The notes: generated from the letters alone by a model not told the origin. Shown: positions 4,600 through 64,000, counted from the first letter of the stretch. The stretch: 64,000 bases of DNA from Patescibacteria group bacterium (GCA_034722035.1 JAYENK010000029.1:5739-69738); one strand, 5' to 3'. A program made the numbers and translations.

Positions 4600-4720
4600 A
4601 GTTTATAAATTCACGAATTAGAACACAAATTCACAAATAATATAAAGAGAAGATTAAATAATTGAGTGCTTTGTGAAGAACTATCTATCTCAGATAGAGT
4701 AATAAAGCGCTAAAAAAGTT

Positions 4721-5188: not shown

Positions 5189-5196
5189 TTTAAAAC

Positions 5197-5388: not shown

Positions 5389-5436
5389 GTATGTTTAACA
5401 TTTAATACTAGATATTTTATACTAAATATTAAAAAT

Positions 5437-41119: not shown

Positions 41120-44100
41120 ATGTTAAATCCGATAAAAACTACTGATTTTGACGCCATTAAACTCAAATTAGCGTCTCCCGATGTTATTTTGAATTGGTCT
41201 AACGGCGAAGTTATTCGACCGGAAACAATTAATTATCGTACGCAAAAACCGGAAAAAGACGGCTTGTTTTGTGAAAAGATTTTTGGCCCATCCAAGGATT
41301 GGGAATGTTATTGTGGAAAATACAAAAAAATTCGTTATAAAGGGATTGTTTGCGATAAATGCGGCGTGGAAGTGACACGCAGCATTGTTCGGCGCGAGCG
41401 TATGGGGCATATATCTCTAAAAACTCCTTGTACTCACATTTGGTTTTTACGCGGTTTATCATCAAAAATAGGTTTGCTTCTGGACCTATCGATGCAAGCT
41501 ATGGAAAAAGTGGTATATTTTGCCAATTTTATTATTATTGATGTTAACGAAGATTTAAAAAGCGCTACAATTGATCAGATTAAAAATGAGTTTGAGCAAA
41601 AAAAGAAATCGATTGGAAATGATTTTAATAAGCAAATTACCGGGATTAAAAACCGAAAAGGAAAATTAATGGAAGAAGGAAAGGATCGTGCGGAGGCTGA
41701 CGAAGAAATCGGTAATGGAATTGATGCTTTGGCCTCGCTTAAAGAAGAAAAATTGAAAAATCTTCAAAAGGCTTTTGAGCAAGCGCAAAAAGAACTAAGA
41801 GATTTAAAGCCGCTTTTGATTATTTCAGAAAGTGTTTATCGGAATTTGAGTCTTAAATATGGACATATTTTTGAAGCCGGTATTGGGGCTGAGGCAATTC
41901 GGAAACTACTTGAAAGAATTGATTTGAAAAAAACAATTACCAGTTTTGAGAATGAACTTAAAGACGCAATTGAATCGAAAAAAGACAAACTGACTCGTCG
42001 TTTAAAGCTTTATAAAAGCTTAGAAGCAAATAATTTAAAACCGGAATGGATGATTTTGACTGAAGTGCCGATTATTCCCCCGGATTTGCGTCCGATGGTT
42101 GCTTTGGATGGGGGTAGATTTGCCACTTCAGATTTAAATGATTTGTATCGAAGGGTTATTAATCGTAATAATCGTTTAAAACAATTGATCGATCTTAACG
42201 CGCCGGAGGTTATTTGCCGCAACGAAAAACGTATGTTGCAAGAAGCGGTTGATGCTTTGATCGATAATTCAGCTCGGCACGGTAAAACCGTAATTGCCAG
42301 CACAGGACAAAAACGTATGCTCAAGTCTTTGGCTGATTCGCTTAAAGGGAAGCAGGGGCGTTTTCGTCAAAATTTGCTTGGTAAAAGAATCGATTATTCC
42401 GGACGAAGTGTGATTGTGGTAAATCCAAAGCTCAACCTTGATCAGTGCGGACTTCCAAAAATTATGGCTTTGGAATTGTTTAAACCGTATATTATAAATA
42501 AGTTAATTGAAAAAGAAATAGTGCATAATGTCCGTTCTGCTTCTCGTTTTATTGATTCCGGTGAAGAGAAGATTTGGGATATTTTAGAAGATATTATAAA
42601 GGAGTCTTATGTAATGCTTAATCGCGCTCCGACTTTGCATCGACTCGGTATTCAGGCTTTTAAACCGATATTAATTGAAGGTAAGGCTTTGCAGATTCAT
42701 CCGCTTGTGTGTACCGCATTTAATGCTGATTTTGATGGAGATCAAATGGCGGTTCATGTTCCTTTGACAAAGGAGGCTATTAAAGAGGCGAGTGAATTAA
42801 TGCTTTCGTCCAAAAATTTGCTTAAACCTGCTACCGGAGATCCGGTTGTAGCACCAAATCAGGATATTGTTTGGGGCACTTTTTATATTACCAGCATATG
42901 GGATGAAGACAAAGATAAAAAAGAAATAAAAAGTTTTTCTGACGAAACCGAGGCAAAGTTAGCCTATGAGCTTAAAAAAATTGATTTACATGAATTAATC
43001 CAAGTTCGTTTGGATGAGAAGGATATAATAAAAACTTCAGTTGGACGAATTATTTTTAATGAGATTTTGCCGGAAAAATTGCGTTTTGTGAATGAGGTTG
43101 TTGGCAAGGGGGGGCTAAAAAACCTGGTAAAAGATTGTTTCAGGCACTATGGTCCGGACAAAACTGTTCATTTTTTGGATGATCTAAAACTTAAAGCTTT
43201 TAGTTTTATTACAAAAAGCGGACTTTCTTGGGGGATGAACGATTTATCAAATTTTTCTGAGAAGGATGAGTTGATTGCCAAAGCTCAAGAAACAGTTGAG
43301 GGTATTCAATCTCAATACGAGGAAGGTCTTTTGACTGATTCGGAGCGTTATGCCAAAGTTATTGAGGTTTGGAGCGGAGTGAAAGAGAAAGTGACTGATA
43401 TTTGCAAAGACGGGCTTGATCGAAGCGGACCGATTTATTCTATGATTGAATCCGGCGCGCGTGGTTCTTGGGCGCAGTTAACGCAAATACTCGGGATGAA
43501 GGGACTCGTAACTTCTCCGTCCGGTGATATTATTGAACTTCCGGTAAAGGGAAATTTTAAAAATGGTTTTGGCGCTCTTGAATATTTTATTTCGACTCAT
43601 GGTGTGCGCAAAGGTTTATCTGATACCGCCCTTCGTACTGCAAGCGCCGGATATTTGACTCGCCGCTTGGTTGATGTATCGCAAGATGTAATTGTGGCAG
43701 ACAATGATTGCGGTGACTCGGACGGTTTTACTATCAGCGAGGAAGAAAGCAAAGTTATGGGAACTACACTTGCAGAGAGAATCGTCGGACGCTACGCCGC
43801 TAAAGATATTATAAACACAAAAGGTAAAGTTTTGATAAAAGCGGGAGACTTAATTGATGATGAGGTATTTGATAAAATTGAAAAAGAAGAAATTAAAGAA
43901 GCAACAATTAGATCGGTTTTATCTTGTAAGCTGCATCGCGGTGTTTGTGTAAAATGTTATGGCTGGGATCTGGGACATCATCGTGATGTTTCTTTGGGGA
44001 CCGCTGTTGGCACAATTGCCGCTCAATCGATTGGTGAGCCGGGAACACAGCTTACTATGAGAACATTTCATACCGGTGGTGTTGCCGGTAGCAATGATAT

Positions 44101-45079
44101 TACTCAAGGGCTGCCGCGAGTTGAAGAGATTTTTGAAGCTCGCTCGCCTAAGCGCAAGGCTATTATTGCCAATAAATCCGGTACTCTAAAAATAGAAGAA
44201 GCCGAGCGGACTATTGAGGATGAAAAAGGCAAAATTACCGTGTCAAATCCACAAGAGAAAATTTTGAAAATAAAATATTTAGGTGAAGCGGCCAAGTCTT
44301 ATTATTTAGCTGAAATTATTAAAGAGTTTAACGCGGAAAACAAGAAAAATAAAATAAGCAAAAAAGATTTAAAGATTTTGGTTAAAGACGGAGACACGAT
44401 TAAATTGCACGCATCGATTGTGGCGATTGGAAGCAAGAAAATTAAGTCTGATATATCCGGGGTGGTGGATTTGAGTGATAAGCGAATTAAGATAAAAGGA
44501 GAAGAAAAAAAGGTAAAAGAATATATCGTCGCCAAGGGGATGTCAATATTGTTTAATAATGGAGATAAAATTAAAAAAGGCGATCAATTGACTGATGGTA
44601 GTGTTGATTTACAGCAATTATTTAAGCTACGCGATAGATTGCAGGCGCAAAAATATATTATTAAAGAAATTCAAAGTGTATATTCTTCGCAAGGGCAGCC
44701 GCTAAACGATAAACATATCGAAATTATCGCAAAACAGATGTTTTCTCGTTTTCTTATTACGGTTTCCGGCGATACTGAGCTTTTGCCGGGCGAAATAGTG
44801 GAAAGCGCTATGTTTAACCGAGCCAATAAAAAGGCGATAGAAGCAGGTAAAGAACCGGCTAAGGCTGATTGTTTACTCCTTGGCATTACCAAGGCATCCC
44901 TTACGACTGATAGTTTTTTATCATCGGCTTCTTTTCAGGAAACGGCTCGGGTATTAATTGACGCGGCTGTTGGCGGTAAGATTGATTATTTGGAAGGACT
45001 TAAGGAGAATGTTATTATCGGTCGTTTAATCCCTGCCGGAACAGGATTTAAGGGGAAGCAAGAGAGAGCGGAATATTAA
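41120..45079 (+). CDS. rpoC: DNA-directed RNA polymerase subunit beta'
   Basis: 1319 aa; Zn finger CYCGKYKKIRYKGIVCDKCGVEV, catalytic NADFDGDQMAVH. Confidence 0.97.
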   Translation: MLNPIKTTDFDAIKLKLASPDVILNWSNGEVIRPETINYRTQKPEKDGLFCEKIFGPSKDWECYCGKYKKIRYKGIVCDKCGVEVTRSIVRRERMGHISLKTPCTHIWFLRGLSSKIGLLLDLSMQAMEKVVYFANFIIIDVNEDLKSATIDQIKNEFEQKKKSIGNDFNKQITGIKNRKGKLMEEGKDRAEADEEIGNGIDALASLKEEKLKNLQKAFEQAQKELRDLKPLLIISESVYRNLSLKYGHIFEAGIGAEAIRKLLERIDLKKTITSFENELKDAIESKKDKLTRRLKLYKSLEANNLKPEWMILTEVPIIPPDLRPMVALDGGRFATSDLNDLYRRVINRNNRLKQLIDLNAPEVICRNEKRMLQEAVDALIDNSARHGKTVIASTGQKRMLKSLADSLKGKQGRFRQNLLGKRIDYSGRSVIVVNPKLNLDQCGLPKIMALELFKPYIINKLIEKEIVHNVRSASRFIDSGEEKIWDILEDIIKESYVMLNRAPTLHRLGIQAFKPILIEGKALQIHPLVCTAFNADFDGDQMAVHVPLTKEAIKEASELMLSSKNLLKPATGDPVVAPNQDIVWGTFYITSIWDEDKDKKEIKSFSDETEAKLAYELKKIDLHELIQVRLDEKDIIKTSVGRIIFNEILPEKLRFVNEVVGKGGLKNLVKDCFRHYGPDKTVHFLDDLKLKAFSFITKSGLSWGMNDLSNFSEKDELIAKAQETVEGIQSQYEEGLLTDSERYAKVIEVWSGVKEKVTDICKDGLDRSGPIYSMIESGARGSWAQLTQILGMKGLVTSPSGDIIELPVKGNFKNGFGALEYFISTHGVRKGLSDTALRTASAGYLTRRLVDVSQDVIVADNDCGDSDGFTISEEESKVMGTTLAERIVGRYAAKDIINTKGKVLIKAGDLIDDEVFDKIEKEEIKEATIRSVLSCKLHRGVCVKCYGWDLGHHRDVSLGTAVGTIAAQSIGEPGTQLTMRTFHTGGVAGSNDITQGLPRVEEIFEARSPKRKAIIANKSGTLKIEEAERTIEDEKGKITVSNPQEKILKIKYLGEAAKSYYLAEIIKEFNAENKKNKISKKDLKILVKDGDTIKLHASIVAIGSKKIKSDISGVVDLSDKRIKIKGEEKKVKEYIVAKGMSILFNNGDKIKKGDQLTDGSVDLQQLFKLRDRLQAQKYIIKEIQSVYSSQGQPLNDKHIEIIAKQMFSRFLITVSGDTELLPGEIVESAMFNRANKKAIEAGKEPAKADCLLLGITKASLTTDSFLSSASFQETARVLIDAAVGGKIDYLEGLKENVIIGRLIPAGTGFKGKQERAEY

Positions 45080-45100
45080 TTTATAAGCCGTTTATATAAT

Positions 45101-45132
45101 AAAAAAACCGACGCGTTTGCGTGGGTTTTTTT
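45101..45132. terminator. Bidirectional terminator between convergent rpoC and porB
   Basis: aaaaaaaccgacgcgtttgcgtgggttttttt. Confidence 0.45.
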
Positions 45133-45142
45133 ATTAAAATAT

Positions 45143-46087
45143 TTATAATCCGTATTTTCTTATATTTTCATCAGCTAATTTTTGAATTAGTTTAAGCTGT
45201 TCTTTGCCTTGCGGAGTTTTGAAGAGATGGGCGAAACGACCTTGCAGCTCCAAGTATTTTTTTATACCTATTTTTGGCTTGGGCGTTTTTAAAACATTCG
45301 TTAGTTCGCCATTTTCAAATTCCAAGACCGGATATAGGCCGGTTTGGGCAGCCAATCTACCAAGCGTCAGGGTTTGGTCCGGTTTGACGCGCCAACCCGG
45401 AATGCATGGTGTCATTATTTGAATATAGGCAGGGCCTGGAGTGGCGGCCGCTTTTACTGCTTTTTGTTTGATATCTTCCAAGTACCCAATAGTAGTTTGA
45501 GCGACATAATTAAGACCGTGTGCCAAGGCAATTTTAATCATATCTTTTTTGCGTTGATGTGAGCCGATTGCGTCAATTTCTTTGCCGCTACCGGACGGGG
45601 TAGTGGTTGTGCTTGAGCCCCATGGAGTAGCACCGGAAGCTTGCATGCCGGTATTGGAATAAGCTTCGTTGTCATAGCAAACATAAAGAATGTCTTCCTC
45701 TCGTTCCCACATACCGCTAATTAAGCCAAAACCGATGTCAAAAGTACTCCCGTCCCCGCCTTGCGCGAGAACTTTGACTTTTTTATTTAGCTTTTGCTGT
45801 TTGAGCGCGGCTTCGACGCCGGAGGCAACGCCGGCTGCGTTTTCAAAAAGAGAATGAATCCAAGGCACGCGCCAGGATGATTCGGGATAAGGAGAGGTGG
45901 TCACTTCCAGGCAGCCGGTATTATTGGCAATGATTGTTTCCGGTCCGAGCGCGTCAATTACAACACGGGCGGCCAAATTTTGGCCACAGCCGGCACAGGC
46001 GCGATGCCCCGGAGCAAGCAAGTGTTTTTTTGATTTAGGTCTTGTGGCTGTTTTGGTTTTTTTAATAGTTTTCGTTTTTGTAGGCAT
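45143..46087 (-). CDS. porB: Pyruvate/2-oxoacid:ferredoxin oxidoreductase beta subunit (TPP-binding)
   Basis: N-terminal Cys cluster HRACAGCGQ, TPP motif GGDGSTFDIGF. Confidence 0.85.
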   Translation of the reverse strand: MPTKTKTIKKTKTATRPKSKKHLLAPGHRACAGCGQNLAARVVIDALGPETIIANNTGCLEVTTSPYPESSWRVPWIHSLFENAAGVASGVEAALKQQKLNKKVKVLAQGGDGSTFDIGFGLISGMWEREEDILYVCYDNEAYSNTGMQASGATPWGSSTTTTPSGSGKEIDAIGSHQRKKDMIKIALAHGLNYVAQTTIGYLEDIKQKAVKAAATPGPAYIQIMTPCIPGWRVKPDQTLTLGRLAAQTGLYPVLEFENGELTNVLKTPKPKIGIKKYLELQGRFAHLFKTPQGKEQLKLIQKLADENIRKYGL

Positions 46088-46110
46088 AGGTATTATTAGT
46101 TTATTATCTT

Positions 46111-46320
46111 TTAGTTAACCGGTAAAACCTGTTTCATATCTTTTAAATTTTGTATTTTATCAAATTGTCCGGTAAATTTGCTTGCGTCAAGAATTTCAAT
46201 CAATATTGGTTTGCCTGCCCGAGAAACATGGATTAAAATATTGCCCACTTCGCGTACATGGCTGATTTTACCTTTAGCCAGTTCAATGCTGACTATATTG
46301 GCTTCTGCATCAAATATCAT
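46111..46320 (-). CDS. DUF2283-family small protein (putative antitoxin-like partner)
   Basis: MIFDAEANIVSIELAKGKISHVREVGNILIHVSRAGKPILIEILDAS is the DUF2283 pattern. Confidence 0.6.
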   Translation of the reverse strand: MIFDAEANIVSIELAKGKISHVREVGNILIHVSRAGKPILIEILDASKFTGQFDKIQNLKDMKQVLPVN

Positions 46321-46329
46321 TCTTTCTTC

Positions 46330-46362
46330 AATTAAGAATTAAAAATTAAAAATTAAGAATTA
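46330..46362. repeat. AT-rich dispersed element dimer in the 49-bp gap between the DUF4258 and DUF2283 genes
   Basis: caattaagaattaaaaattaaaaattaagaatta. Confidence 0.45.
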
Positions 46363-46369
46363 TTTTTTA

Positions 46370-46585
46370 TTATTTTACAGGGAAAAAGGTTATTACTTTA
46401 ATTATTTTATTTTCACTACTATAAATTACATTAATGTTATTTTTGATAGCTGAAAAATATTTACCCTTTTTTTTAGTATCATCCGGATTCGCAATCGTAT
46501 CTTCAATTTGTTCCCGCGTAAAAAACACCTGATGTCTATTCAGTATTTCAAATTTTTGATCTGCGTATTTACTAAAATATATCAT
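46370..46585 (-). CDS. DUF4258-family protein (putative toxin-like partner of DUF2283)
   Basis: MIYFSKYADQKFEILNRHQV...IKVITFFP. ATG at 46585 with an AAGGA ribosome-binding site; the track's GTG at 46600 is probably an upstream extension. Confidence 0.6.
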   Translation of the reverse strand: MIYFSKYADQKFEILNRHQVFFTREQIEDTIANPDDTKKKGKYFSAIKNNINVIYSSENKIIKVITFFPVK

Positions 46586-46594
46586 TTTTTTCCT

Positions 46595-46618
46595 TAGCAC
46601 ATTCTATGGAATGTGCTA
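46595..46618. promoter_or_regulatory. Perfect 10-bp inverted repeat (TAGCACATTC-tatg-GAATGTGCTA) at the 5' end of the DUF4258 gene, a candidate autoregulatory operator
   Basis: Seen directly. It overlaps the ribosome-binding site and start region on the minus strand. Confidence 0.35.
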
Positions 46619-46706
46619 GTATTATTAATTTGAAAACAGAAAAATATTAGTAATATTAAAATTAAGATAAAAGCATAAAATTATCAGGAAAGACCAATGA
46701 TAGTTA

Positions 46707-47402
46707 TTAGTTAGAATTATTTTCATTGCATTGTCCGTCCATTGTACATGCATCTTCTCCTTCGCCCGAAACAAGCTGGCAATGATATGTGTATCCACTT
46801 GGTAGAGCACCTTGTTTACGACATTCTTTGTGAGATATTGCTGACTCCTTTTTTTTCTTTTTGCAAGCACAAAGTAACCCTATATGATCGTTTGCGCTAC
46901 CTGGGCAGTAACTTTCATCTTTTTCATCCCATGTTATTAAATCTACTCTATTTTTCCAGTAGCACTCTGAATGATTGCTCATATCAACAACACTCGGTGT
47001 CTCCAGCTTAATCGCTGTCATCGTCAATAAATTCGGATTAACCATATATAACAAAGTATAAGACGAAAGGGCTAGAATCAAGCCGGTCAATGATGAAAAA
47101 ATCCATTGTTTAGCGTTGTCCATTTTGCTGGCGTTGCCGGCGGCCGTAATATATAATACTCCACCATACATCATTACCACCGTTGCCAAAATTCCAACGA
47201 TACCAAGGGCGTAAGTATAAATTGCATTTATTAGATTTCCGATTGAGTTGGGACCAATTTTTTTGTGACTAAATCCAATTTGATCAATAACTTGGGCGTC
47301 AAAATCTATTGCTGCCTGTACCGAGCTAATTTGTGCAAATAAAATAATGAATAAAAATAGAAAAAATAAAGGAATGATGTGTTTTGTTGTTTTTTTTGTC
47401 AT
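46707..47402 (-). CDS. TrbC/VirB2-like pilin family protein with a Cys-rich C-terminal domain (secreted)
   Basis: Signal peptide, then two hydrophobic helices (...YALGIVGILATVVMMYGGVLYITAAGNASKMDNAKQWIFSSLTGLILALSSYTLLYMVNP) typical of the TrbC/VirB2 fold. The C-terminus has 9 Cys. Confidence 0.45.
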   Translation of the reverse strand: MTKKTTKHIIPLFFLFLFIILFAQISSVQAAIDFDAQVIDQIGFSHKKIGPNSIGNLINAIYTYALGIVGILATVVMMYGGVLYITAAGNASKMDNAKQWIFSSLTGLILALSSYTLLYMVNPNLLTMTAIKLETPSVVDMSNHSECYWKNRVDLITWDEKDESYCPGSANDHIGLLCACKKKKKESAISHKECRKQGALPSGYTYHCQLVSGEGEDACTMDGQCNENNSN

Positions 47403-47418
47403 AAGTTATTTGATGACT

Positions 47419-47691
47419 CTATAAACAGTTATATATATCGTGTTTTCCGATTGATATAAAAGTAATCTCTCCATTGATTTGACGCTCGAATATAATTCGA
47501 TAATTTTTGTTAATTGAAATTGACCAGGCATTTTTTAACCGTCCATGTAGTTCGTGCATTCTTAATGATGAGTGAAGAGGATTGATTTTAAAGATTTTTT
47601 CTGTAGTAATTGCTTTTTTTATTATTTTTTTTGGCAATTTTTTTAATTGCTTTGCAAATTTTTTTGAATATTTTATTTTTACTACGATCAT
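47419..47691 (-). CDS. relE: RelE/ParE-family toxin (type II toxin-antitoxin system)
   Basis: KIKYSKKFAKQLKKLPKKIIKKA...YRIIFERQINGEITFISIGKH. Has a 4-bp ATGA overlap with the upstream antitoxin. Confidence 0.75.
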   Translation of the reverse strand: MIVVKIKYSKKFAKQLKKLPKKIIKKAITTEKIFKINPLHSSLRMHELHGRLKNAWSISINKNYRIIFERQINGEITFISIGKHDIYNCL

Positions 47692-47921
47692 AATAGATCA
47701 GCTATTGAATTAGCCTTAATTAAAGTTCCTTTTTTATATTCTTGCCTAGCTTTTTTAATCATTTTAGCTAGACTGTCTTCAGAAATAATATTATCATCTC
47801 CGTCCATTTCAAGTAGATACTTAATATAACTGCTAATTGATTTGTATCCGCGTTTTTTTACCCTGTTTTTTATTTCTTTGATTGTTTTTCCTGGCATAGA
47901 AAGACTTAAAATTTCACGCAT
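47688..47921 (-). CDS. Antitoxin partner of RelE (77 aa)
   Basis: Small protein directly upstream, translationally coupled to the toxin. A palindromic operator lies upstream. Confidence 0.55.
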   Translation of the reverse strand: MREILSLSMPGKTIKEIKNRVKKRGYKSISSYIKYLLEMDGDDNIISEDSLAKMIKKARQEYKKGTLIKANSIADLL

Positions 47922-47943
47922 AAATTTATTTTATTTATTATTG

Positions 47944-47963
47944 TGTAATACAAGTGTATTACA
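47944..47963. promoter_or_regulatory. Perfect 9-bp inverted repeat TGTAATACA-ag-TGTATTACA upstream of the antitoxin, a candidate toxin-antitoxin operator
   Basis: Seen directly in the promoter region of the minus-strand antitoxin-relE pair. Confidence 0.4.
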
Positions 47964-47982
47964 AATTAATATTTTTGTCAAT

Positions 47983-49164
47983 TTATCCCACAAACCGACA
48001 TTTGTCACTACTTCGCCCAACTTCAATGACGATTGATTTGATCATTTTTTTGGTAATATCGCGTCCGCCCAGGCCGACAATGAAACCTTGAATTTTGGTT
48101 TTGGTTTTGTTTTTGGCAGCTGCTTTAACATCCAAGGTAAGGGGGCCATCGCTTGCTCCCAAAGAAATCGCTTTCTCTACAACCGCTACTTGTTTAACGC
48201 CGGTGATTGATTTGAGCAGTTCATTGGCGGGGAACGGACGATAACATTTTATTTTGACAACACCAACGCCACCATAAACTTTATTTTTATTCATTTCGTC
48301 TACCGCGTCTTTAATTGTTCCAATCAAAGAGCCCATTGCAATCAAAACTGTCTTGGGTCGGATAGCGCCGTAGTATTCCAAAAGACCATTATTGATATGG
48401 GCGTTTTTTTCAGTTTTTTTAATTACACCCGGTACTTTCTTTTTTAGATTTTCATATTCATCAAAAATACTTTTGGCCGAATTTAACATTGCATTATGCA
48501 GTTCTTCGCGTATTTCCAGATAATAAGCCGGTGGAGCAAAAGTACCTAAACTATGTGGATTTTTTGTATCCAGATATCCGCCGGATGTCGGTTTATAATT
48601 AGGGAGAAATTTTTTAACGTCCGCTCGATTAGGGATTGATACATTTTCATAAGTATGAGTTAAAACAAAGCCATCAATGCAAACCATGGCTGGTAATTTG
48701 TCTTTTTCCGCTACTTTGTAGGCTAGTAAATGCTGCTCCAGTGCTTCTTGGTGGTTCTCGGCATAAAATTGAATCCAGCCGGCGTCGCGCACTGTCATTG
48801 AGTCTTGATGGTCATTCCAGATTGTGATTGGGGCAGATATACCACGATTAGCCAGTGTTATTACAACCGGTAAGCGCATACCGGCAATATTAAAAATAAC
48901 TTCAGTCATCAGAAGCAATCCCTGTGAGCTGGTGGCAGTATAGGTACGGACGCCAGTCGCGCTTGCACCGGTGACAATTGAAGCGGCTGCAAATTCACTC
49001 TCGGCGCGAACATATTCATAAGTAGCTTTGCCATCAGCCTTGAGTTTAGCTAAATCTTCAACAATATGCGTTTGTGGCGTAATCGGATAAGCGGAAACAA
49101 CCGCCGGTTTAATATTATTGATAGTTTGAGCAATCGCTTGAGAGCCTTCTAATATTTGTTTCAT
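47983..49164 (-). CDS. porA: Pyruvate/2-oxoacid:ferredoxin oxidoreductase alpha subunit
   Basis: MKQILEGSQAIAQ...AYPITPQT... Confidence 0.9.
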   Translation of the reverse strand: MKQILEGSQAIAQTINNIKPAVVSAYPITPQTHIVEDLAKLKADGKATYEYVRAESEFAAASIVTGASATGVRTYTATSSQGLLLMTEVIFNIAGMRLPVVITLANRGISAPITIWNDHQDSMTVRDAGWIQFYAENHQEALEQHLLAYKVAEKDKLPAMVCIDGFVLTHTYENVSIPNRADVKKFLPNYKPTSGGYLDTKNPHSLGTFAPPAYYLEIREELHNAMLNSAKSIFDEYENLKKKVPGVIKKTEKNAHINNGLLEYYGAIRPKTVLIAMGSLIGTIKDAVDEMNKNKVYGGVGVVKIKCYRPFPANELLKSITGVKQVAVVEKAISLGASDGPLTLDVKAAAKNKTKTKIQGFIVGLGGRDITKKMIKSIVIEVGRSSDKCRFVG

Positions 49165-49171
49165 AGATTTT

Positions 49172-49444
49172 TTATTTAGTTTCTAATTTCATCTTAATAC
49201 ACTTAACCGGGCATTTGGCGGCGCAGAGGCCACAACCTTTACAATAATCATAATCGGTTTTGGGTTGGTTTTTTTTGCCTTTTTTTATCATGGCAATGCA
49301 AGTCTCGGGGCAAACTTTGGCGCAAGCGCCGCAACCGATACATTTGTCATAATCGGTGCGGGGGATAAAGGTGCGCCAGCCCCCGGTTTTATTATTAGTT
49401 GTTGAACCTGGTTTTACTGCTAAATCCATAGTATTATAATGCAA
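49172..49444 (-). CDS. porD: POR delta subunit (2x[4Fe-4S] ferredoxin)
   Basis: CIGCGACAKVCP and CKGCGLCAAKCP. Confidence 0.85.
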   Translation of the reverse strand: MHYNTMDLAVKPGSTTNNKTGGWRTFIPRTDYDKCIGCGACAKVCPETCIAMIKKGKKNQPKTDYDYCKGCGLCAAKCPVKCIKMKLETK

Positions 49445-49500
49445 ATTTACGAATGATATGCGAATCTACAAATTCGAATTATGCGAAAAATCATTGCGTA
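49445..49500. promoter_or_regulatory. Repeated CGAAT-motif cluster containing the 17-mer AATTCGAATTATGCGAA (porG-porD intergenic)
   Basis: tacgaatgatatgcgaatctacaaattcgaattatgcgaaaaatcattgcgta. The 17-mer is identical to 50968..50984. Confidence 0.35.
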
Positions 49501-49520
49501 GAAATGTGATTTTTAATTTT

Positions 49521-50066
49521 TTAATTCATGTTGTATGCTCTAGTTATTGCGTTTATGTTTTTTTCGACTAAGCTCTGACTTTTGGTGCCAAATTTTTGTT
49601 TGATTGCTTTTTCAAGAGATTTTAGAGTGATTAAGCCGGTGGCTTTGGCGAAAGCACCGAGGATTACGGTGTTGACAATGTTTCGGCCAATTTCTTCCAT
49701 CGCAATTTCGGTTGCATTTAAGACAAACAAATTTTCTTTTGGAATAGGTAGATCAATTTCTTCCTTTTTTTTGGTTGAATTGAGGATTAATAAAGTCTCT
49801 TTGTCGGATCCTTTGGTGGCGTCAACTGTGCCGATCAAGGAAGAGTCTTGAATAATTAAAATATCCGGCTCGTAGATGTGTTCACGCGTGCGGATAGGTG
49901 AGTCGTCGATCCTGGCAAAAGCTTCAATCGGCGCGCCGGTACGCTCCACGCCAAAAGAAGGAAAGGCTTGTGAATAATGCCCCTCATTGAAAGCGGCAAT
50001 TGCAGTAAGTTCGGCGGCAGTGACAACGCCCTGTCCGCCCCGACCGTGAAATCTAATTTGATGCAT
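49521..50066 (-). CDS. porG: POR gamma subunit
   Basis: MHQIRFHGRGGQGVVTAAELTAIAAF. Confidence 0.85.
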   Translation of the reverse strand: MHQIRFHGRGGQGVVTAAELTAIAAFNEGHYSQAFPSFGVERTGAPIEAFARIDDSPIRTREHIYEPDILIIQDSSLIGTVDATKGSDKETLLILNSTKKKEEIDLPIPKENLFVLNATEIAMEEIGRNIVNTVILGAFAKATGLITLKSLEKAIKQKFGTKSQSLVEKNINAITRAYNMN

Positions 50067-50750
50067 TTATTTGTTGTTATTTTTATTATTTTGAATTAGT
50101 AATCCATTAATTATTTCGGAAAATATGTTAGGTGGAATATTCCCGGCGATTTTGATGTCATTGATATACCAAGTGGGAGTGCCAGTTATACCCAGGTTTT
50201 GCCCGGCTTTAAGATCAGCCGTAACTGAACCTAGATATTTTTTTCCTTCCAAGCAGTTATTAAATTTTTTTCCATCAAGACCAATTTGGCGCGCCAATTC
50301 ATTTAATTCATTGGCAGTGCTAATGCCTTGGTTGAGAAAAAGGGAATCATGCATCGCCCAAAATTTGTCTTGCTCGCCAGCGCATTCGGCCGAAAGCGCC
50401 AAAAGAGTAGAGTACTCGGTTATTATAGGATAATGGCGATAAATTATTCTTATTTTATCTTGATATTTTAGGCTAATCTCTCTTATTGTTGAAAAAGCGT
50501 TTTTACAATAAGGGCAGGTAAAATCACTAAATTCAACAATAGTAATAAGCGGGGAAGAGCTTCCAATCGAATGGCTAAGCGGGTTATTATTGATTAGTTT
50601 CAATTTTTCCGTACTAACAGTATATTTAGAAGAGCTCGTGCTATCAATTGGGTTTTTGTATATTTTGAAACTTTTTACTCCAATAATTACTATAACAATA
50701 ATAAATAATAATAGAGTCAATAAAAATATAATGAAAAAAAATTTTTTCAT
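50067..50750 (-). CDS. DsbA-like thioredoxin-fold thiol:disulfide oxidoreductase, N-terminal membrane anchor
   Basis: CPYC active site in FSDFTCPYCKNAF. Its stop abuts the porG start. Confidence 0.75.
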   Translation of the reverse strand: MKKFFFIIFLLTLLLFIIVIVIIGVKSFKIYKNPIDSTSSSKYTVSTEKLKLINNNPLSHSIGSSSPLITIVEFSDFTCPYCKNAFSTIREISLKYQDKIRIIYRHYPIITEYSTLLALSAECAGEQDKFWAMHDSLFLNQGISTANELNELARQIGLDGKKFNNCLEGKKYLGSVTADLKAGQNLGITGTPTWYINDIKIAGNIPPNIFSEIINGLLIQNNKNNNK

Positions 50751-50940
50751 CTTTGATTTGTTTTATATTAAATAATCTTTTATAATATTAATTATAACAT
50801 ATTTTAAGTATTATATCCAAAAATGATAAACAATAATAAAAAAGAAGAAGAAATAAGAAAAAAGTACGAAAAACGGGACAAGAAGAAGGCAAAAAAGATG
50901 AAGGTTAGTGGAAAAAGTGTATTTAAAGTGCAAAAAATTA

Positions 50941-51192: not shown

Positions 51193-53598
51193 ATGGAAAA
51201 ATATAATTATAATAAAACAGAAAAAAAGTGGAGTCAAAAATGGGTAGAAGACAAGACTTTTACACCTGACTTAAAAAACGCGAAAGATCCTTACTACGCG
51301 CTTTTTATGTTTCCTTATCCGAGCGCTGAAGGGCTGCATATTGGGAATTTTTATGCTTTTGTTTGTACAGACGTAATGGCAAAATACAAAAAACTACAAG
51401 GTAAGGACGTGTTTGAGCCTTTTGGCTTTGATGCTTTTGGCATGCACTTGGAAAATTATGCCCTAAAAATAGGGGAGAGGCCACAAGCAGTAGAGGCGCG
51501 TACTACCAAAAATTTTCGTAAGCAAGCACAGTCGGCCGGACTTTCTTGTGATTATACTCGTGAAGTTGACACAACCAAGCCGGAGTATTACAAATGGACC
51601 CAGTGGCTTTTTACTAAACTTTTTGAAAAAGATTTGGCTTATCAGAAAGAAGCTTTGCTCAATTGGTGTCCATCTTGCCAGACGGTTTTGGCGGACGAAC
51701 AGATAGAAGACGGGATTTGTGAAAGGTGCAATGCTCAGCCGGAGAAAAAAACAATGAAACAATGGTTTTTTCGTATTACGGCTTACGCGGATAAAATGCT
51801 TGAAGGACTTGAGGACATGGATTGGTCGGAAATTACAAAAGCAGCGCAGAAGAATTGGATTGGTAAAAGTGAAGGAGCGGAAGTTGAATTTAGAATCAAG
51901 AATTTAGAATCAAGAATTAAAGTGTTCACTACTCGTCCGGATACTTTGTTTGGCGTGACTTATATGGTGTTGGCGACGGAGCATTCTTTAATTAAAAATT
52001 TAAAATTAAGAATTAAAAATTATCAAGAAGTTCAAGCATATATTAAAAAAACTGAAGCTAAGTCAGAGTTAGAACGAACAGAAAACAAAGAGAAGACCGG
52101 AGTAAAATTAGAGGGGGTGTATGCGGTTAATCCGGTAAACAATGAAAAAATATCGATTTGGATTGCGGATTATGTAATGATGGGTTATGGGACGGGCGCG
52201 ATTATGGCAGTGCCGGCGCATGATGAGCGTGATTATGAGTTTGCGAAAAAGTTTGATTTGCCCATTGTCGAAGTGTTGAGTGGGGGAAATATTGAAAAAG
52301 AGGCATATATTGGGGACGGCAATCATATTAACTCCGGTTTTTTGAATGGTTTAAATAAAGAGAACGCAATTAAAAAAATTACTGATTGGCTTGAAGAAAA
52401 AAAATTTGGTAAAAAAGAAGTAAATTATCGTTTGCGTGATTGGTGTATTTCTCGGCAACGCTATTGGGGACCGCCGGTACCGGTTGTGTATTGTGAGAAA
52501 TGTGGAATTTTATCAGTGCCAGAAAAGGATTTGCCGGTAATGTTGCCCGAAACTCAAGAATGGGAGCCATCCGGCGATGGACGAGGACCGCTTGCCAAGG
52601 TGGACGAATTTATGAATACAAAATGTCCTAAATGCGGTGAGCCAGCTGTACGCGAAGCTGACGTAATGGACAATTTTCTTGATTCGGCTTGGTATTTTTT
52701 TCGTTATATTTCGCCAAGTAATTCTGAGGCGATATTTGATGCTAAGCTAGGTAAGAAGTGGCTGCCGGTTGATTTGTATGTTGGCGGCAATGAACATGCA
52801 GTTCTTCATTTGATGTATACCCGTTTTATTACAATGTTTTTGCACGATTTGGATTTGATTGATTTTAATAATCCTTTTAAAAAGTTTCGGGCGAATGGTA
52901 TGATTTTAAAAGACGGCAAGAAAATGAGCAAGTCTAAGGGAAACGTGATTAGTCCGGAGGAGTATGGTAAAAAAGTCGGTTATGACGCGCTTAAAACTTA
53001 TTTACTCTTTCTTGGCCCTTTGAGTGAAGACAGGTCTTTTACCGATACCGGCGTTCAAGGCACAAAAAGATGGGTGGAGAAAGTTTATAAATTAAAGGAA
53101 AAAGTATTGGATAAATATGATGACAGCGAAGAAGCGGCCAGAAAGTTGCACCAGACAATTAAAGTGGTTGGGGAAAATTTTGAAGAGCAAAAATATAACA
53201 CAGCCGTGGCCAGGTTAATGGAGCTTACCAATGTATTTGTTCAAGCTAAAAATATATCAAAAGAAAACTGGAAAAAATATTTAGCGATTATAGCTCCCTT
53301 TACTCCGGCTTTGGCCGAGGAGCTTTGGCGCGAATTTGGAAATAAGACTTCAATTTTTAGCGGTAGGAATTGGCCGGATTATGATAAAAAATCAATCAAA
53401 GAAGAAACAGTTGGAATAGTCGTGCAAATTAATGGCAAAGTGCGGGATAAGCTGAAATTAAATGCAGATATTAGCGAGGCGGACGCAATAAAAAAAGCCA
53501 AAGAATCAGAAAAAGTGAAAAAATGGCTTTTTGATAAAGAGATTATAAAAGAAATTTATGTAAAAGGGAAGTTGGTTAGTTTGGCGGTTAAAGATTAG
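51193..53598 (+). CDS. leuS: Leucyl-tRNA synthetase
   Basis: 801 aa; HIGN (HIGH) and KMSKS present; carries an in-frame tandem 14-bp repeat and a copy of the AT-rich element in the editing-domain region. Confidence 0.95.
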   Translation: MEKYNYNKTEKKWSQKWVEDKTFTPDLKNAKDPYYALFMFPYPSAEGLHIGNFYAFVCTDVMAKYKKLQGKDVFEPFGFDAFGMHLENYALKIGERPQAVEARTTKNFRKQAQSAGLSCDYTREVDTTKPEYYKWTQWLFTKLFEKDLAYQKEALLNWCPSCQTVLADEQIEDGICERCNAQPEKKTMKQWFFRITAYADKMLEGLEDMDWSEITKAAQKNWIGKSEGAEVEFRIKNLESRIKVFTTRPDTLFGVTYMVLATEHSLIKNLKLRIKNYQEVQAYIKKTEAKSELERTENKEKTGVKLEGVYAVNPVNNEKISIWIADYVMMGYGTGAIMAVPAHDERDYEFAKKFDLPIVEVLSGGNIEKEAYIGDGNHINSGFLNGLNKENAIKKITDWLEEKKFGKKEVNYRLRDWCISRQRYWGPPVPVVYCEKCGILSVPEKDLPVMLPETQEWEPSGDGRGPLAKVDEFMNTKCPKCGEPAVREADVMDNFLDSAWYFFRYISPSNSEAIFDAKLGKKWLPVDLYVGGNEHAVLHLMYTRFITMFLHDLDLIDFNNPFKKFRANGMILKDGKKMSKSKGNVISPEEYGKKVGYDALKTYLLFLGPLSEDRSFTDTGVQGTKRWVEKVYKLKEKVLDKYDDSEEAARKLHQTIKVVGENFEEQKYNTAVARLMELTNVFVQAKNISKENWKKYLAIIAPFTPALAEELWREFGNKTSIFSGRNWPDYDKKSIKEETVGIVVQINGKVRDKLKLNADISEADAIKKAKESEKVKKWLFDKEIIKEIYVKGKLVSLAVKD

Positions 53599-55190: not shown

Positions 55191-55463
55191 ATGATAAAAA
55201 ATACAAGAAAAATTAAAAAACAAGAATTTTCTGTTTTGATTGAAAAAGATGAAAGCGGTTTTTATTTTGCTAAAGTGCCAACAATTAAAGGCTGTCATAC
55301 TCAAGCTAAATCATTGTCAGAATTGTATAAACGCTTAGATGAAGCAGTATTACTTTGTTTGGAAGTGCAAGAAAAAGATAAAGAATATTTAATTAGCAAG
55401 AATGAGTTTGTTGGTTTTCAAAAAATAGAAGTGAAAATACCTCCAAAATTAAAATATGCCTAA
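55191..55463 (+). CDS. hicB: HicB-family antitoxin
   Basis: FSVLIEKDESGFYFAKVPTIKGCHTQAKSLSELYKRLDEAVLLCLE. Confidence 0.7.
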   Translation: MIKNTRKIKKQEFSVLIEKDESGFYFAKVPTIKGCHTQAKSLSELYKRLDEAVLLCLEVQEKDKEYLISKNEFVGFQKIEVKIPPKLKYA

Positions 55464-55692
55464 ACTAACACTGATAAGCGGGGAAAAAATGCTTAAATTA
55501 CTTGCTTTGTGCGATTTTGAGATTGTTAGAATTAAAGGAAGTCATCATTTTTTAAAAAATAAAACCAAAAGAAGTATGACGGTAGTGCCAGTTCATGGAA
55601 ATGAAGAATTAGGTGTTGGTTTGTTAATTAGCATATTGTCAGATGTGGATTTGTCCAGAAAAGAATATGAAAAATTACGGCGAAAAATTTAA
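55456..55692 (+). CDS. hicA: HicA-family toxin (mRNA interferase)
   Basis: KLLALCDFEIVRIKGSHHFLKNKTKRSMTVVPVHGNEELGVGLLISIL. Has an 8-bp overlap with hicB. Confidence 0.75.
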   Translation: MPKLTLISGEKMLKLLALCDFEIVRIKGSHHFLKNKTKRSMTVVPVHGNEELGVGLLISILSDVDLSRKEYEKLRRKI

Positions 55693-55698
55693 TAAAAA

Positions 55699-55725
55699 AT
55701 CATCCTCATGTAGGATGATTTTTTA
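55699..55725 (+). terminator. Rho-independent terminator after hicA
   Basis: atcatcctc-atg-taggatgat + T6. Confidence 0.5.
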
Positions 55726-57397: not shown

Positions 57398-57424
57398 ATA
57401 AACAAATTCATAAAATTATATATA

Positions 57425-63400: not shown

Positions 63401-64000
63401 AAAATTGCGTCCGGCTCTAAATGTACGAGATATTATTGCTAGTGGAAACACTCAATATGTTTCTCAGACTTGCCGCTTATATCCAAAAGATGATGCTTTG
63501 TCTTGTGAATATTTTGAGGAATCGGGCATTAAAAATAAAGGCATATACGGTTATTGTCTGGAATATGATCGCGCGCCCGGTTCTAAGGACACTTGCATTT
63601 TGTGGTATCCGGTGGACAGGGTTAAAGGTGATGGGATTGAAGGGGGGGCTGGTTATAACGGGAAAATGCCGGTTTATTATTGTACAGACGCAATTCCTAT
63701 TTTTGGTTTTCAAGGAGAATGGAAAGATTGGCTTGTTCCGAAGGGTGGGAGTTGTGGTGACATTATTATAAATAACGATCGTTTTAACGCGTATATGAAT
63801 ACGGATGAACCAGATGGATTGACTGGTGGTGGATGCGACGGTGATTACGGCGGTCTTCGCAATCGTCCTCCAGGTTGGGGTGGGGGCACGTTTAATGATT
63901 GTCCAGGAAATTGTGCTGATACCAGGCAAAGCGACTATCTTTTGCCTAGTCCAATAACTACAGATGCAAACGACAGATCATGGTATTATTTATCTTTTTA
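57425..64000 (+). CDS. Giant (more than 2,170 aa, 3' partial) Cys-rich extracellular protein with several CBM4/9-like jelly-roll modules. The signal peptide is separated from the body by a 1-nt frame change in a T6 tract, so the gene is a possible pseudogene or phase-variable gene.
   Basis: ATG 57425 encodes MKNFVKFKKNITVLFTLMF, then T6 at 57479-57484. The original frame stops at 57512-57514. The adjacent frame (open from 57477 to the window end with no stop) continues ...FATCLVFGPNVVFA|DSFF.... Downstream there are repeated xGC(x)E(F/Y) Cys motifs and modules such as NSSFEDYDG...GNSALHL..., DNFESGHTDDW...GGHSLYV..., ANGGFEVYGDNNYPISWMP... Confidence 0.55.

What the first reader, a model, noticed from the sequence alone, without database searches (positions are those of the whole stretch)
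45143..50750. Pyruvate:ferredoxin oxidoreductase operon split between porA and porB by a co-oriented toxin-antitoxin + pilin insertion
The dsbA-like, porG, porD and porA genes are contiguous, but porB lies 1.9 kb further on. The gap holds a RelB/RelE-type pair (ATGA-coupled, palindromic operator TGTAATACA-ag-TGTATTACA), a TrbC/VirB2-like pilin with a Cys-rich tail, and a DUF4258/DUF2283 pair (palindrome TAGCACATTC-tatg-GAATGTGCTA). All of these are on the same strand as the por genes. A 4-subunit POR is normally encoded gamma-delta-alpha-beta without interruption. The insertion looks like an addiction or mobile cassette that landed inside an essential central-metabolism operon, and porB must now be expressed by read-through or its own promoter. 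Toxin-antitoxin modules embedded inside an essential operon are unusual and could couple cassette retention to POR expression.
Basis: partly seen in the sequence, partly recalled or inferred. Interest (0 to 1): 0.6.

Follow-up and report, generated by a model that had tools for sequence, protein, structure and literature searches.

The report
Conserved split POR operon in Patescibacteria
The pyruvate:ferredoxin oxidoreductase genes really are interrupted by a pilin gene and two toxin-antitoxin-like pairs, but this is the old, inherited gene order of a whole group of ultra-small (Falkowbacteria-type) bacteria, and only the RelE-type pair is a roaming cassette.

Summary
On the minus strand the order is dsbA-like, porG, porD, porA, [77-aa antitoxin + 90-aa RelE/StbE toxin], VirB2-like pilin, [71-aa RelE-fold protein + DUF2283], porB. 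Both palindromes exist.

In 24 of 25 non-redundant related loci, porA and porB lie 1.2-3.9 kb apart with 1-2 pilin genes between them. This window's 1.9 kb is typical. In 58 non-CPR loci the two genes are adjacent.

The 71-aa/DUF2283 pair sits directly before porB in 75 of 78 informative loci. It diverges at the same rate as PorB (34% vs 33%), and its distances track PorA/PorB distances (Mantel r 0.54-0.70, p<=5e-4). It is therefore vertically inherited, not mobile.

Only the RelE pair is mobile. It is absent from the three closest relatives and present in 8 of 39 non-redundant loci. It also occurs in unrelated contexts, always with TTGACA plus two TGTA[A/T]TACA half-sites.

The pilin tails carry an even number of cysteines in 50 of 52 cases, which fits the conserved neighbouring DsbA.

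Verdict: a real, undescribed but modestly interesting lineage-specific gene order.

The parts
50791..50819 (-). Candidate sigma-70-type promoter upstream of dsbA (TGGATA-17-TATAAT with TG)
   Evidence: Consensus scan, 10 of 12 matches. Inference only.
50067..50750 (-). Membrane-anchored DsbA-like thiol:disulfide oxidoreductase
   Evidence: Thioredoxin_4 3e-28 and DSBA 7.5e-21. It is conserved at the head of the block in relatives. In L127 it is directly adjacent to the pilins.
49521..50066 (-). porG (POR gamma subunit)
   Evidence: PF01558, 1.3e-39.
49172..49444 (-). porD (POR delta subunit, 2x[4Fe-4S] ferredoxin-like)
   Evidence: Fer4 family hits. The translation shows two CxxCxxCxxxCP motifs.
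47983..49164 (-). porA (POR alpha subunit)
   Evidence: POR_N 1e-70 and PFOR_II 2e-24. NCBIfam PorA_Arch 8e-130.
47944..47981 (-). Promoter/operator of the RelE-type cassette. -35 TTGACA at 47981-47976, -10 TACACT at 47958-47953, two TGTA[A/T]TACA half-sites at 47963-47944.
   Evidence: TTGACA plus the two half-sites are present upstream of all 13 full-length homologous antitoxin genes examined (12 distinct upstream sequences), although the antitoxins are only 42-56% identical to the window's.
47688..47921 (-). 77-aa antitoxin, probably ribbon-helix-helix
   Evidence: ATGA overlap with the toxin gene. Only weak similarity of residues 5-40 to the NikR RHH domain (E 0.02-0.08). Its homologues always precede the RelE homologue.
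47419..47691 (-). 90-aa RelE/StbE-family mRNA-interferase-type toxin
   Evidence: TIGR02385, 41.8 bits against a cut-off of 27.9. YafQ/HigB/ParE Pfam hits. 370 homologues in Patescibacteria.
46707..47402 (-). VirB2/TrbC-like pilin with a 106-aa tail containing 8 Cys
   Evidence: PF18895 4.3e-11. Sub-threshold match to the Mbov_0395 pilin-like conjugal transfer protein. Orthologous pilins lie in the same gap in relatives. Cys counts in tails are even in 50 of 52 cases.
46595..46618 (.). Perfect 10-bp-arm palindrome/hairpin ending 10 nt before the start codon of the 71-aa gene. It overlaps a weak promoter-like site (TTAATA-16-TAGAAT, 46628-46601).
   Evidence: RNA hairpin about -13.5 kcal/mol, z -3.1. 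It is not conserved in any relative, so its role as an operator is unproven.
46370..46585 (-). 71-aa RelE/YoeB-fold (BECR) protein, 'DUF4258-like'
   Evidence: No significant Pfam hit. AF2 pLDDT 94. Foldseek best hits are YoeB/RelE/YafQ/ParE, TM 0.55-0.70. 661 homologues, with the top 120 at 52-79% identity. Position is fixed in front of DUF2283-porB.
46111..46320 (-). 69-aa DUF2283 (YuzE-like) protein
   Evidence: PF10049 3.3e-8. The model is a beta-meander plus a low-confidence C-terminal helix, with no PDB match. It lies downstream of the 71-aa gene in 84 of 85 informative loci.
45143..46087 (-). porB (POR beta subunit, TPP-binding)
   Evidence: TPP_enzyme_C 8e-20. NCBIfam PorB 1.3e-100. 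Single copy in the window.
45097..45136 (.). Bidirectional intrinsic terminator between porB and the convergent rpoC
   Evidence: 18-nt arms, 94% complementary. RNA -18.5 kcal/mol, z -4.3, followed by a U-run. It is the only terminator-like structure for the minus strand in the cluster.

Best explanation
This is the normal, vertically inherited gene order of a Falkowbacteria-type clade of Patescibacteria (CPR). The order is dsbA, porG, porD, porA, one to three VirB2-like pilin genes with disulfide-rich tails, a small RelE-fold protein, a DUF2283 protein, then porB, ending at a terminator shared with the convergent rpoC.

porA and porB were separated once, early in the clade. The pilin genes and the small protein pair have been kept in the gap ever since and have diverged in step with the POR subunits. 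In this lineage they behave as resident core genes, not as a mobile insert.

The gap is also a landing zone for small selfish genes. In this genome a RelE/StbE toxin plus a probable RHH antitoxin, carrying its own sigma-70-like promoter and a conserved operator, sits between porA and the pilin gene. Relatives carry the same cassette just upstream of the 71-aa gene, or instead carry GIY-YIG, lytic transglycosylase, nucleotidyltransferase or 23S-IVS-protein genes.

Inferred, not shown:
- No minus-strand terminator is seen before the one after porB. porB is therefore probably made by read-through from the dsbA promoter plus internal promoters: the RelBE promoter, and possibly one before the 71-aa gene.
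- The neighbouring DsbA probably oxidises the cysteine-rich pilin tails.
For: **Gene order.**
- PorA-seeded search of one genome per species. The ten best matches are Falkowbacteria/Parcubacteria-type MAGs at 55-72% identity, and nine are long enough to be informative. All nine have a pilin beside the por genes. In five of the six that reach porB the pilin lies between porA and porB. Three of those six also have the small pair.
- 90 loci with the 71-aa gene. DUF2283 follows in 84 of 85 informative loci, porB next in 75 of 78, a pilin lies upstream in 53 of 58, and porA upstream in 29 of 31.
- The porA-porB gap is 1.2-3.9 kb in 24 of 25 non-redundant CPR loci (median 2.3 kb; 1.9 kb in the window). 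In 58 non-CPR loci the median is about 72 nt.

**Vertical inheritance.**
- 39 loci with less than 95% PorB identity show mean divergence of 33% for PorB, 34% for the 71-aa protein and 40% for DUF2283. Mantel r against PorB is 0.54 and 0.69, p<=5e-4.
- In the 21 of those loci that also have porA, Mantel r against PorA is 0.62 and 0.70, and PorA-PorB is 0.80.

**RelE cassette is mobile.**
- It is absent from the three nearest relatives and present in 8 of 39 non-redundant loci.
- It also occurs in three unrelated contexts.
- TTGACA plus two TGTA[A/T]TACA half-sites are conserved in every copy.

**DsbA-pilin link.**
- 50 of 52 pilin tails have an even Cys count, range 4-26.
- L127 has dsbA directly followed by two pilins and the small pair, with no por genes.

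**Transcription.**
- The only minus-strand terminator lies after porB.
Against: - The metagenome loci were found with the 71-aa protein as bait. They cannot say how often the pair is absent. In the unbiased PorA-seeded set only 3 of 6 complete loci have it.
- One locus, L005, has porA and porB adjacent with the pilin after porB. No species tree was built, so ancestral polarity rests on parsimony.
- Read-through transcription, the internal promoters and DsbA acting on the pilins are all inferences without expression or biochemical data.
- The palindrome before the 71-aa gene is unexplained and occurs only in this genome.
Confidence: 0.8

Rival explanations
1. One reading: a composite mobile or addiction cassette (RelBE + pilin + DUF pair) recently inserted into a formerly contiguous porGDAB operon of this genome.
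For: - The gap has lower G+C (25-31%) than the por genes (38-51%).
- Non-CPR relatives have contiguous porAB.
- The RelE pair is indeed mobile.
Against: - The same interleaving is found in 24 of 25 non-redundant related loci, down to about 55% PorA identity.
- The small pair co-diverges with POR.
- No flanking direct or inverted repeats bound the 1.9-kb gap.
- Low G+C is also seen in other intergenic and small-gene stretches, for example 50.4-51.2 kb.
Confidence: 0.04
2. The 71-aa RelE-fold protein and DUF2283 are a domesticated, toxin-antitoxin-derived module with a host function. It could control porB/POR expression, or act on the pilin/DsbA surface module. On this reading it is neither an addiction system nor a neutral passenger.
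For: - Fixed position immediately 5' of porB in 75 of 78 loci.
- Divergence as low as that of PorB, with congruent distances.
- 14 invariant and 17 nearly invariant residues out of 71 across 55 sequences.
- The pair is kept with dsbA and the pilins even where the por genes are gone (L127).
- DUF2283 domains occur in a transcriptional activator, FseA (PMC4755241).
Against: - Absent from L005, L007 and L010, which still have por genes, so it is not required for POR.
- No conserved operator upstream.
- No experiment exists.
- Tight conserved synteny is common in reduced CPR genomes without functional coupling.
Confidence: 0.2
3. The primary conserved unit is a cell-surface module (DsbA + disulfide-rich VirB2-like pilins + the small pair). 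The por genes are the interlopers, split because they entered or were rearranged in two pieces around that module.
For: - L127 keeps dsbA-pilin-pilin-pair-rpoC with no por genes.
- L142 and L164 lack porB after the pair.
- Even Cys counts link the pilins to DsbA.
- The nearest PorA relatives outside the CPR are Omnitrophota and archaea at about 50% identity, which is compatible with acquisition.
Against: - Loss of POR by two deletions in a few genomes explains L127 equally well.
- The overwhelming majority of loci have all four por genes.
- No locus shows the module in a lineage that demonstrably never had POR.
Confidence: 0.15
4. Assembly or binning artefact, or porB is a stand-alone paralogue of another 2-oxoacid oxidoreductase.
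For: The window comes from a metagenome-assembled genome.
Against: - The same order appears in dozens of independent assemblies from different studies.
- There is one porB in the window.
- Best NCBIfam match is PorB, 1e-100.
- PorA-PorB distances correlate with r=0.80.
Confidence: 0.02

Closest known systems
Four-subunit pyruvate:ferredoxin oxidoreductase operon (porGDAB; archaeal/Thermotoga type)
   Same: All four subunits are present with the expected domains. These are the gamma POR domain, the delta 2x[4Fe-4S] motifs, alpha POR_N plus PFOR_II, and the beta TPP-binding domain with its N-terminal Cys motif. They are co-oriented, with best family matches to PorA/PorB.
   Different: porB is separated from porA by 1.9 kb holding five unrelated genes, and a dsbA-like gene heads the block. 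This split is the rule in the clade, not a one-off.
RelBE/StbDE-type type II toxin-antitoxin modules (RHH antitoxin + RelE toxin, autoregulated)
   Same: - The antitoxin comes first and the genes overlap by ATGA.
- The toxin passes the TIGR02385 cut-off.
- A palindromic operator overlaps the -10 of a near-consensus promoter and is conserved among homologous cassettes.
- The cassette is found in many unrelated contexts.
   Different: - The antitoxin matches no curated family. There is only weak similarity to the NikR RHH domain.
- No gap separates the cassette from the host genes. It starts 1 nt after the porA stop codon and ends 16 nt before the pilin start. It is therefore probably co-transcribed with its neighbours.
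DUF4258 (Ntox49 / BECR-fold) predicted toxins and DUF2283 (YuzE / FseA-domain) proteins
   Same: Small size and a beta-alpha-alpha-beta4 RelE/colicin-like fold. A few members are named DUF4258 by NCBI. The partner is a bona fide DUF2283. DUF4258 is listed among RelE/ParE-superfamily TA toxins with unknown activity (PMC11980606).
   Different: - It fails the Pfam DUF4258 threshold.
- The gene order is toxin-like first, whereas PMC11980606 lists DUF4258 modules as antitoxin-first.
- It is vertically inherited at one chromosomal position with core-gene-like conservation, rather than patchy and mobile.
VirB2-like pilin genes and pilin arrays of Patescibacteria (bioRxiv 10.1101/2025.01.22.634366)
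   Same: PF18895 domain. One to three tandem, highly divergent copies with variable C-terminal tails.
   Different: Here the array is not near virB4 or other T4SS genes in the ORFs checked. It is locked between porA and porB next to a DsbA gene. The even-numbered Cys-rich tails were not a feature discussed in the passages of that paper I read.

Membership tests
Four-subunit POR (porGDAB) | Genes for gamma, delta, alpha and beta subunits with their characteristic domains | tested here: met
   PF01558, Fer4 x2, PF01855+PF17147 and PF02775. NCBIfam best hits are PorA_Arch 8e-130 and PorB 1e-100, both below the equivalog cut-offs.
Four-subunit POR (porGDAB) | Contiguous gamma-delta-alpha-beta operon | tested here: not met
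   1,895 bp and five genes lie between porA and porB. The same is true in 24 of 25 related non-redundant loci.
Four-subunit POR (porGDAB) | Pyruvate-specific oxidoreductase activity | not testable with these tools
   The sequence cannot separate POR from VOR or another 2-oxoacid specificity. The VOR and oxalate oxidoreductase models also score well.
Type II TA, RelBE/StbDE type (47921-47419) | Toxin belongs to the RelE/StbE family | tested here: met
   TIGR02385, 41.8 bits against a cut-off of 27.9. PF15738 33.4 bits against 30; PF05015 31.8 against 27.
Type II TA, RelBE/StbDE type (47921-47419) | Small antitoxin gene immediately upstream, translationally coupled | tested here: met
   ATGA overlap at 47691-47688. 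The pair is conserved as a unit in 13 other loci.
Type II TA, RelBE/StbDE type (47921-47419) | Antitoxin has a DNA-binding (RHH) domain | tested here: inconclusive
   Only weak matches of residues 5-40 to the NikR RHH domain: E 0.024 in NCBIfam and E 0.08 for the profile against PDB.
Type II TA, RelBE/StbDE type (47921-47419) | Palindromic operator in its own promoter | tested here: met
   TTGACA plus TGTA[A/T]TACA-NN-TGTA[A/T]TACA upstream of all 14 full-length cassette copies examined, window included (13 distinct upstream sequences). Binding itself was not tested.
Type II TA, RelBE/StbDE type (47921-47419) | Toxicity and neutralisation | not testable with these tools
   Needs expression experiments.
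Pfam DUF4258 | Match to PF14076 at or above the gathering score | tested here: not met
   No hit for the window protein. Best among four orthologues is E 0.027.
RelE/ParE (BECR-fold) toxin superfamily | beta-alpha-alpha-beta4 fold superposable on RelE/YoeB/YafQ | tested here: met
   AF2 pLDDT 94. Top 40 Foldseek PDB hits are almost all RelE/YoeB/YafQ/ParE/HigB toxins, probability about 1.0, TM 0.55-0.70, E 5e-3 and above.
Type II TA (71-aa protein + DUF2283) | Patchy, horizontally mobile distribution | tested here: not met
   Fixed position, with divergence and distance matrices matching PorA/PorB.
Type II TA (71-aa protein + DUF2283) | Conserved autoregulatory operator | tested here: not met
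   Upstream regions are unrelated among 39 loci. The palindrome occurs only in this genome.
Type II TA (71-aa protein + DUF2283) | Toxin activity neutralised by the partner | not testable with these tools
   No complex prediction or experiment is available.
VirB2/TrbC-like T4SS pilin (PF18895) | Signal/TM-TM pilin domain matching the family model | tested here: met
   PF18895, 43.2 bits against a cut-off of 26.6, residues 52-119.
VirB2/TrbC-like T4SS pilin (PF18895) | Encoded with other T4SS genes (VirB4, VirB6 and others) | tested here: not met
   Neighbours are por, rpoC and leuS. The ten largest other ORFs of the window are EF-G, EF-Tu, SecY, ABC/FtsX, kinases, a Mur ligase, a U32 peptidase and one without a Pfam hit. 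The rest of the genome was not seen.
DsbA | Thioredoxin fold with a CxxC active site and a membrane anchor or signal | tested here: met
   PF13462/PF01323. The translation shows a CPYC motif and an N-terminal hydrophobic segment. The substrate is unknown.

The most novel reading that the evidence does not exclude
The RelE-fold/DUF2283 pair is a toxin-antitoxin module that became fixed and domesticated at the base of a whole CPR order. It now does two things.

1. It serves a host function tied to the DsbA/pilin surface module or to porB expression.
2. Its highly conserved first ~80 nt act as a dedicated landing pad. Other TA cassettes (RelBE, nucleotidyltransferase-type) integrate there serially by Campbell-type or homology-assisted recombination, each leaving a truncated duplicate of the gene's 5' end. 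This would be an integron-like cassette site without an integrase.
Probability: 0.15. Interest if true: 0.6.

Novelty: new variant of a known kind. Interest (0 to 1): 0.35.

Why it matters
- **Annotation.** It corrects a natural misreading. A metabolic operon that looks 'interrupted by mobile DNA' in one genome can be the stable ancestral state of a lineage. For people annotating CPR genomes, porB should not be scored as missing or orphan when it lies 1-4 kb from porA.
- **Toxin-antitoxin biology.** It provides a clean natural example of a toxin-antitoxin-like pair evolving like a core gene. That bears on the debate over whether chromosomal TA modules acquire host functions.
- **Pilin biogenesis.** It links a DsbA to disulfide-rich VirB2-like pilins in bacteria whose pilin arrays are reported as essential for epibiotic growth.

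None of this changes a major concept. The value is descriptive and hypothesis-generating.

Tried and rejected
- **Repeats bounding the gap.** I searched for target-site duplications or terminal inverted repeats around the 1.9-kb gap. Only low-complexity AT-rich matches turned up.
- **Pfam assignment.** The 71-aa protein does not reach significance for DUF4258.
- **Profile searches against PDB.** Profiles of the 71-aa protein, DUF2283 and the 77-aa antitoxin found nothing significant.
- **Palindrome at 46595-46618.** I tested whether it is a conserved operator. It is absent from all 38 other non-redundant loci, so I do not call it an operator. It is also not a terminator, because no U-run follows it.
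- **Exact-sequence look-up of the window pilin.** It is not on record.
- **tRNA and Rfam scans of the window.** Nothing found, so there is no tRNA-type integration site.
- **Paralogues.** None of the ten genes has a paralogue elsewhere in the window.
- **Literature.** No paper pairs Falkowbacteria with POR. No paper describes a DUF4258-DUF2283 pair.
- **G+C dip in the gap.** I considered it as evidence of foreign origin and rejected it, because other small-gene and intergenic stretches of this genome are equally AT-rich.

Full report
**What is in the window.** On the minus strand between the convergent rpoC (41120-45079, +) and leuS (51193-53598, +) lie ten co-oriented genes:
- dsbA-like, 50750-50067.
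- porG, 50066-49521.
- porD, 49444-49172.
- porA, 49164-47983.
- A 77-aa ORF, 47921-47688. It overlaps by ATGA with the next ORF.
- A 90-aa RelE/StbE-family toxin, 47691-47419 (TIGR02385 above its cut-off).
- A PF18895 VirB2-like pilin, 47402-46707, with 8 Cys in its tail.
- A 71-aa ORF, 46585-46370.
- A DUF2283 protein, 46320-46111.
- porB, 46087-45143.

The two palindromes are exact, at 47944-47963 and 46595-46618. They are two of only about 13 perfect palindromes with arms of 9 nt or more in the 64-kb window.

The one correction concerns the 71-aa protein. It does not reach significance against Pfam DUF4258. A high-confidence AlphaFold model (pLDDT 94) nevertheless superposes on RelE/YoeB/YafQ/ParE toxins.

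**Comparison seeded with PorA.** A scan of one genome per species placed the window among Candidatus Falkowbacteria / Parcubacteria-type MAGs at 55-72% PorA identity. All more distant relatives were non-CPR bacteria and archaea.

I mapped the ten window proteins onto the loci and read the ORFs.
- Three species have exactly dsbA-porG-porD-porA-pilin-71aa-DUF2283-porB.
- Two have porA-pilin-porB.
- Three have porA-pilin and then the contig ends.
- One has porA-porB-pilin.

None of them has the RelE pair. In 58 non-CPR loci, porA and porB are adjacent.

**Comparison seeded with the 71-aa protein.**
- The protein has 661 homologues. The best 120 are all about 71 aa, 52-79% identical, and from Patescibacteria.
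- Every long contig I looked up showed the same block, including the convergent rpoC.
- A metagenome scan added 80 loci.
- Among 90 loci with a full-length 71-aa gene, the linkage counts in informative loci were:
  - DUF2283 follows in 84 of 85.
  - porB follows that in 75 of 78.
  - A pilin lies upstream in 53 of 58.
  - porA lies upstream in 29 of 31.
- These loci were baited with the 71-aa protein. They show linkage, not prevalence. The PorA-seeded set gives the unbiased picture.
- After removing near-duplicates, porA and porB are 1.2-3.9 kb apart in 24 of 25 loci (median 2.3 kb), with one or two pilin genes between them. The window's 1.9 kb is ordinary.

**The small pair is inherited, not mobile.**
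- In 39 loci with less than 95% PorB identity, mean divergence is 33% for PorB, 34% for the 71-aa protein and 40% for DUF2283.
- The distance matrices are congruent. Mantel r is 0.54 and 0.69 against PorB.
- In the 21 of those loci that also have porA, r is 0.62 and 0.70 against PorA, and 0.80 for PorA against PorB. All have p<=5e-4.
- Across 55 sequences, 14 of 71 positions are invariant and 17 more are nearly so.

This is the behaviour of a resident core gene, not of a roaming addiction module.

**The RelE pair is the mobile part.**
- It is missing from the three nearest relatives by PorB and present in 8 of 39 non-redundant loci.
- In those loci it usually sits directly upstream of the 71-aa gene, rather than next to porA as in the window.
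- Its toxin family has 370 close homologues in Patescibacteria.
- Of four contexts I looked up, three are unrelated to por: next to a PcfJ-like gene, next to a copper ATPase, and elsewhere. One is again the por gap.
- Every full-length copy is preceded by TTGACA and two TGTA[A/T]TACA half-sites about one helical turn apart. This holds although the antitoxins are only 42-56% identical to the window's.
- In the window the -35 is 47981-47976 and the -10 is 47958-47953, inside the palindrome.

That conservation is good evidence for an autoregulatory operator. The RHH nature of the antitoxin is only weakly indicated.

**The second palindrome.** The 10-bp-arm palindrome 10 nt upstream of the 71-aa gene folds well. 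No U-run follows it, and it is absent from all 38 other non-redundant loci. In many relatives the 71-aa gene abuts or overlaps the preceding gene. I therefore do not accept it as a conserved operator. Its role remains open: a lineage-specific operator, an RNA stabiliser or a processing site.

**How the block is probably expressed (inference).** The only intrinsic terminator on the minus strand is the bidirectional hairpin after porB, at 45097-45136. Spacers are short: 16 nt from RelE to the pilin and 23 nt from DUF2283 to porB. The simplest model is read-through from a promoter-like site upstream of dsbA (50819-50791). The RelBE promoter, and possibly a weak site at 46628-46601, would add to it. 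This needs transcript data.

**DsbA and the pilins.** Of 52 complete pilin ORFs from the gap in which the NPxL motif could be found, 50 have an even number of cysteines in the tail after that motif (range 4-26, median about 10). Even counts are what fully disulfide-bonded extracytoplasmic domains show. Locus L127 has dsbA, two pilins, the small pair and rpoC in the usual order but no por gene at all. This suggests DsbA, the pilins and the pair form a unit that is kept independently of POR. Whether POR was lost there or the surface module is the older resident cannot be decided here.

**Literature.**
- VirB2-like pilins and tandem pilin arrays are known to be widespread in CPR (bioRxiv 10.1101/2025.01.22.634366).
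- DUF4258 is listed as a RelE/ParE-superfamily or colicin-like BECR toxin family of unknown activity (PMC11980606 and bioRxiv 10.64898/2026.08.28.747851).
- DUF2283 occurs in the ICE activator FseA (PMC4755241).
- I found no paper on por gene order in Falkowbacteria and none on a DUF4258-DUF2283 pair.

**Side observation in relatives.** In L152, L153, L138, L087 and L129, the TA cassettes in front of the 71-aa gene are each preceded by a truncated duplicate of that gene's first 11-27 codons. In L152 this is a 79-nt direct repeat at 96% identity, and all three differences are synonymous. L129 carries two such units in series: a decayed RelBE unit, and a wHTH-nucleotidyltransferase cassette. A circle carrying a cassette plus the gene's 5' segment, integrating by a single crossover, would give exactly this structure. 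That is a hypothesis only.

**Verdict.** The 'insertion into an essential operon' story is wrong for four-fifths of the gap and right only for the RelE cassette. What is really there is an undescribed but stable lineage-specific gene order. It includes a core-like TA-derived pair and a plausible DsbA-pilin functional link. Interest is modest.

Noticed in passing
window 55191-55725: A third TA-type pair lies within 10 kb of the por cluster. It consists of a HicB-like ORF at 55191-55463 (PF15919, E 1.2e-5, just below threshold) overlapping a HicA toxin at 55456-55692 (PF07927, 5e-15). A perfect 14-nt-arm hairpin follows immediately at 55693-55725.
   Followed up: partly
L152:335-1066; L138:821-1656; L129:4049-6078; L087:~540-580; L153:~330-400: TA cassettes sitting 5' of the 71-aa gene are each preceded by a truncated duplicate of that gene's first 11-27 codons. 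In L152 this is a 79-nt direct repeat at 96% identity, with all 3 differences synonymous. L129 has two serial units: a RelBE remnant, then a wHTH-nucleotidyltransferase + 133-aa pair. The structure looks like Campbell-type or homology-assisted serial integration at one conserved small gene.
   Followed up: partly
L127:106-3424: A related genome has dsbA, two Cys-rich pilins, the 71-aa gene and DUF2283 directly followed by the convergent rpoC, with no por gene at all. L142 and L164 also lack porB after the pair.
   Followed up: partly
L167, L169, L170 (about 4680-5273 in each): The same RelE-type cassette occurs in genomic contexts unrelated to por. It comprises a 75-aa antitoxin, a 90-aa toxin, and TTGACA plus two TGTA[A/T]TACA sites. 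In some copies the two half-sites are direct rather than inverted repeats.
   Followed up: yes
L006:10335-10586; L081:3119-3487 and 5415-5822; L083:4800-6020; L085:1243-1635: Other small genes occupy the same block in relatives. These are a 23S_rRNA_IVP four-helix protein between the 71-aa and DUF2283 genes, a GIY-YIG nuclease and an unknown 135-aa ORF, an SLT lytic transglycosylase domain protein, and a PDDEXK_3 protein between dsbA and porG. The block is a hot-spot for small accessory genes.
   Followed up: partly
window 57414-64000 (+): One reading frame stays open from 57414 to the end of the window, at least 6.6 kb or about 2,190 codons. This is probably a giant protein gene that runs off the window.
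   Followed up: no
window 46321-46369: The 49-nt spacer between the 71-aa gene and DUF2283 is a run of short AT-only direct repeats (aattcttaatttttaatttttaattcttaatt). Its significance is unknown.
   Followed up: no
window 1-45079: The surroundings are housekeeping chromosome: EF-G, EF-Tu, SecY, ABC/FtsX transporter, two histidine kinases, a Mur ligase, rpoB and rpoC. No tRNA genes and no Rfam matches were found in the whole 64 kb, and no VirB4-like protein among the large ORFs checked.
   Followed up: partly
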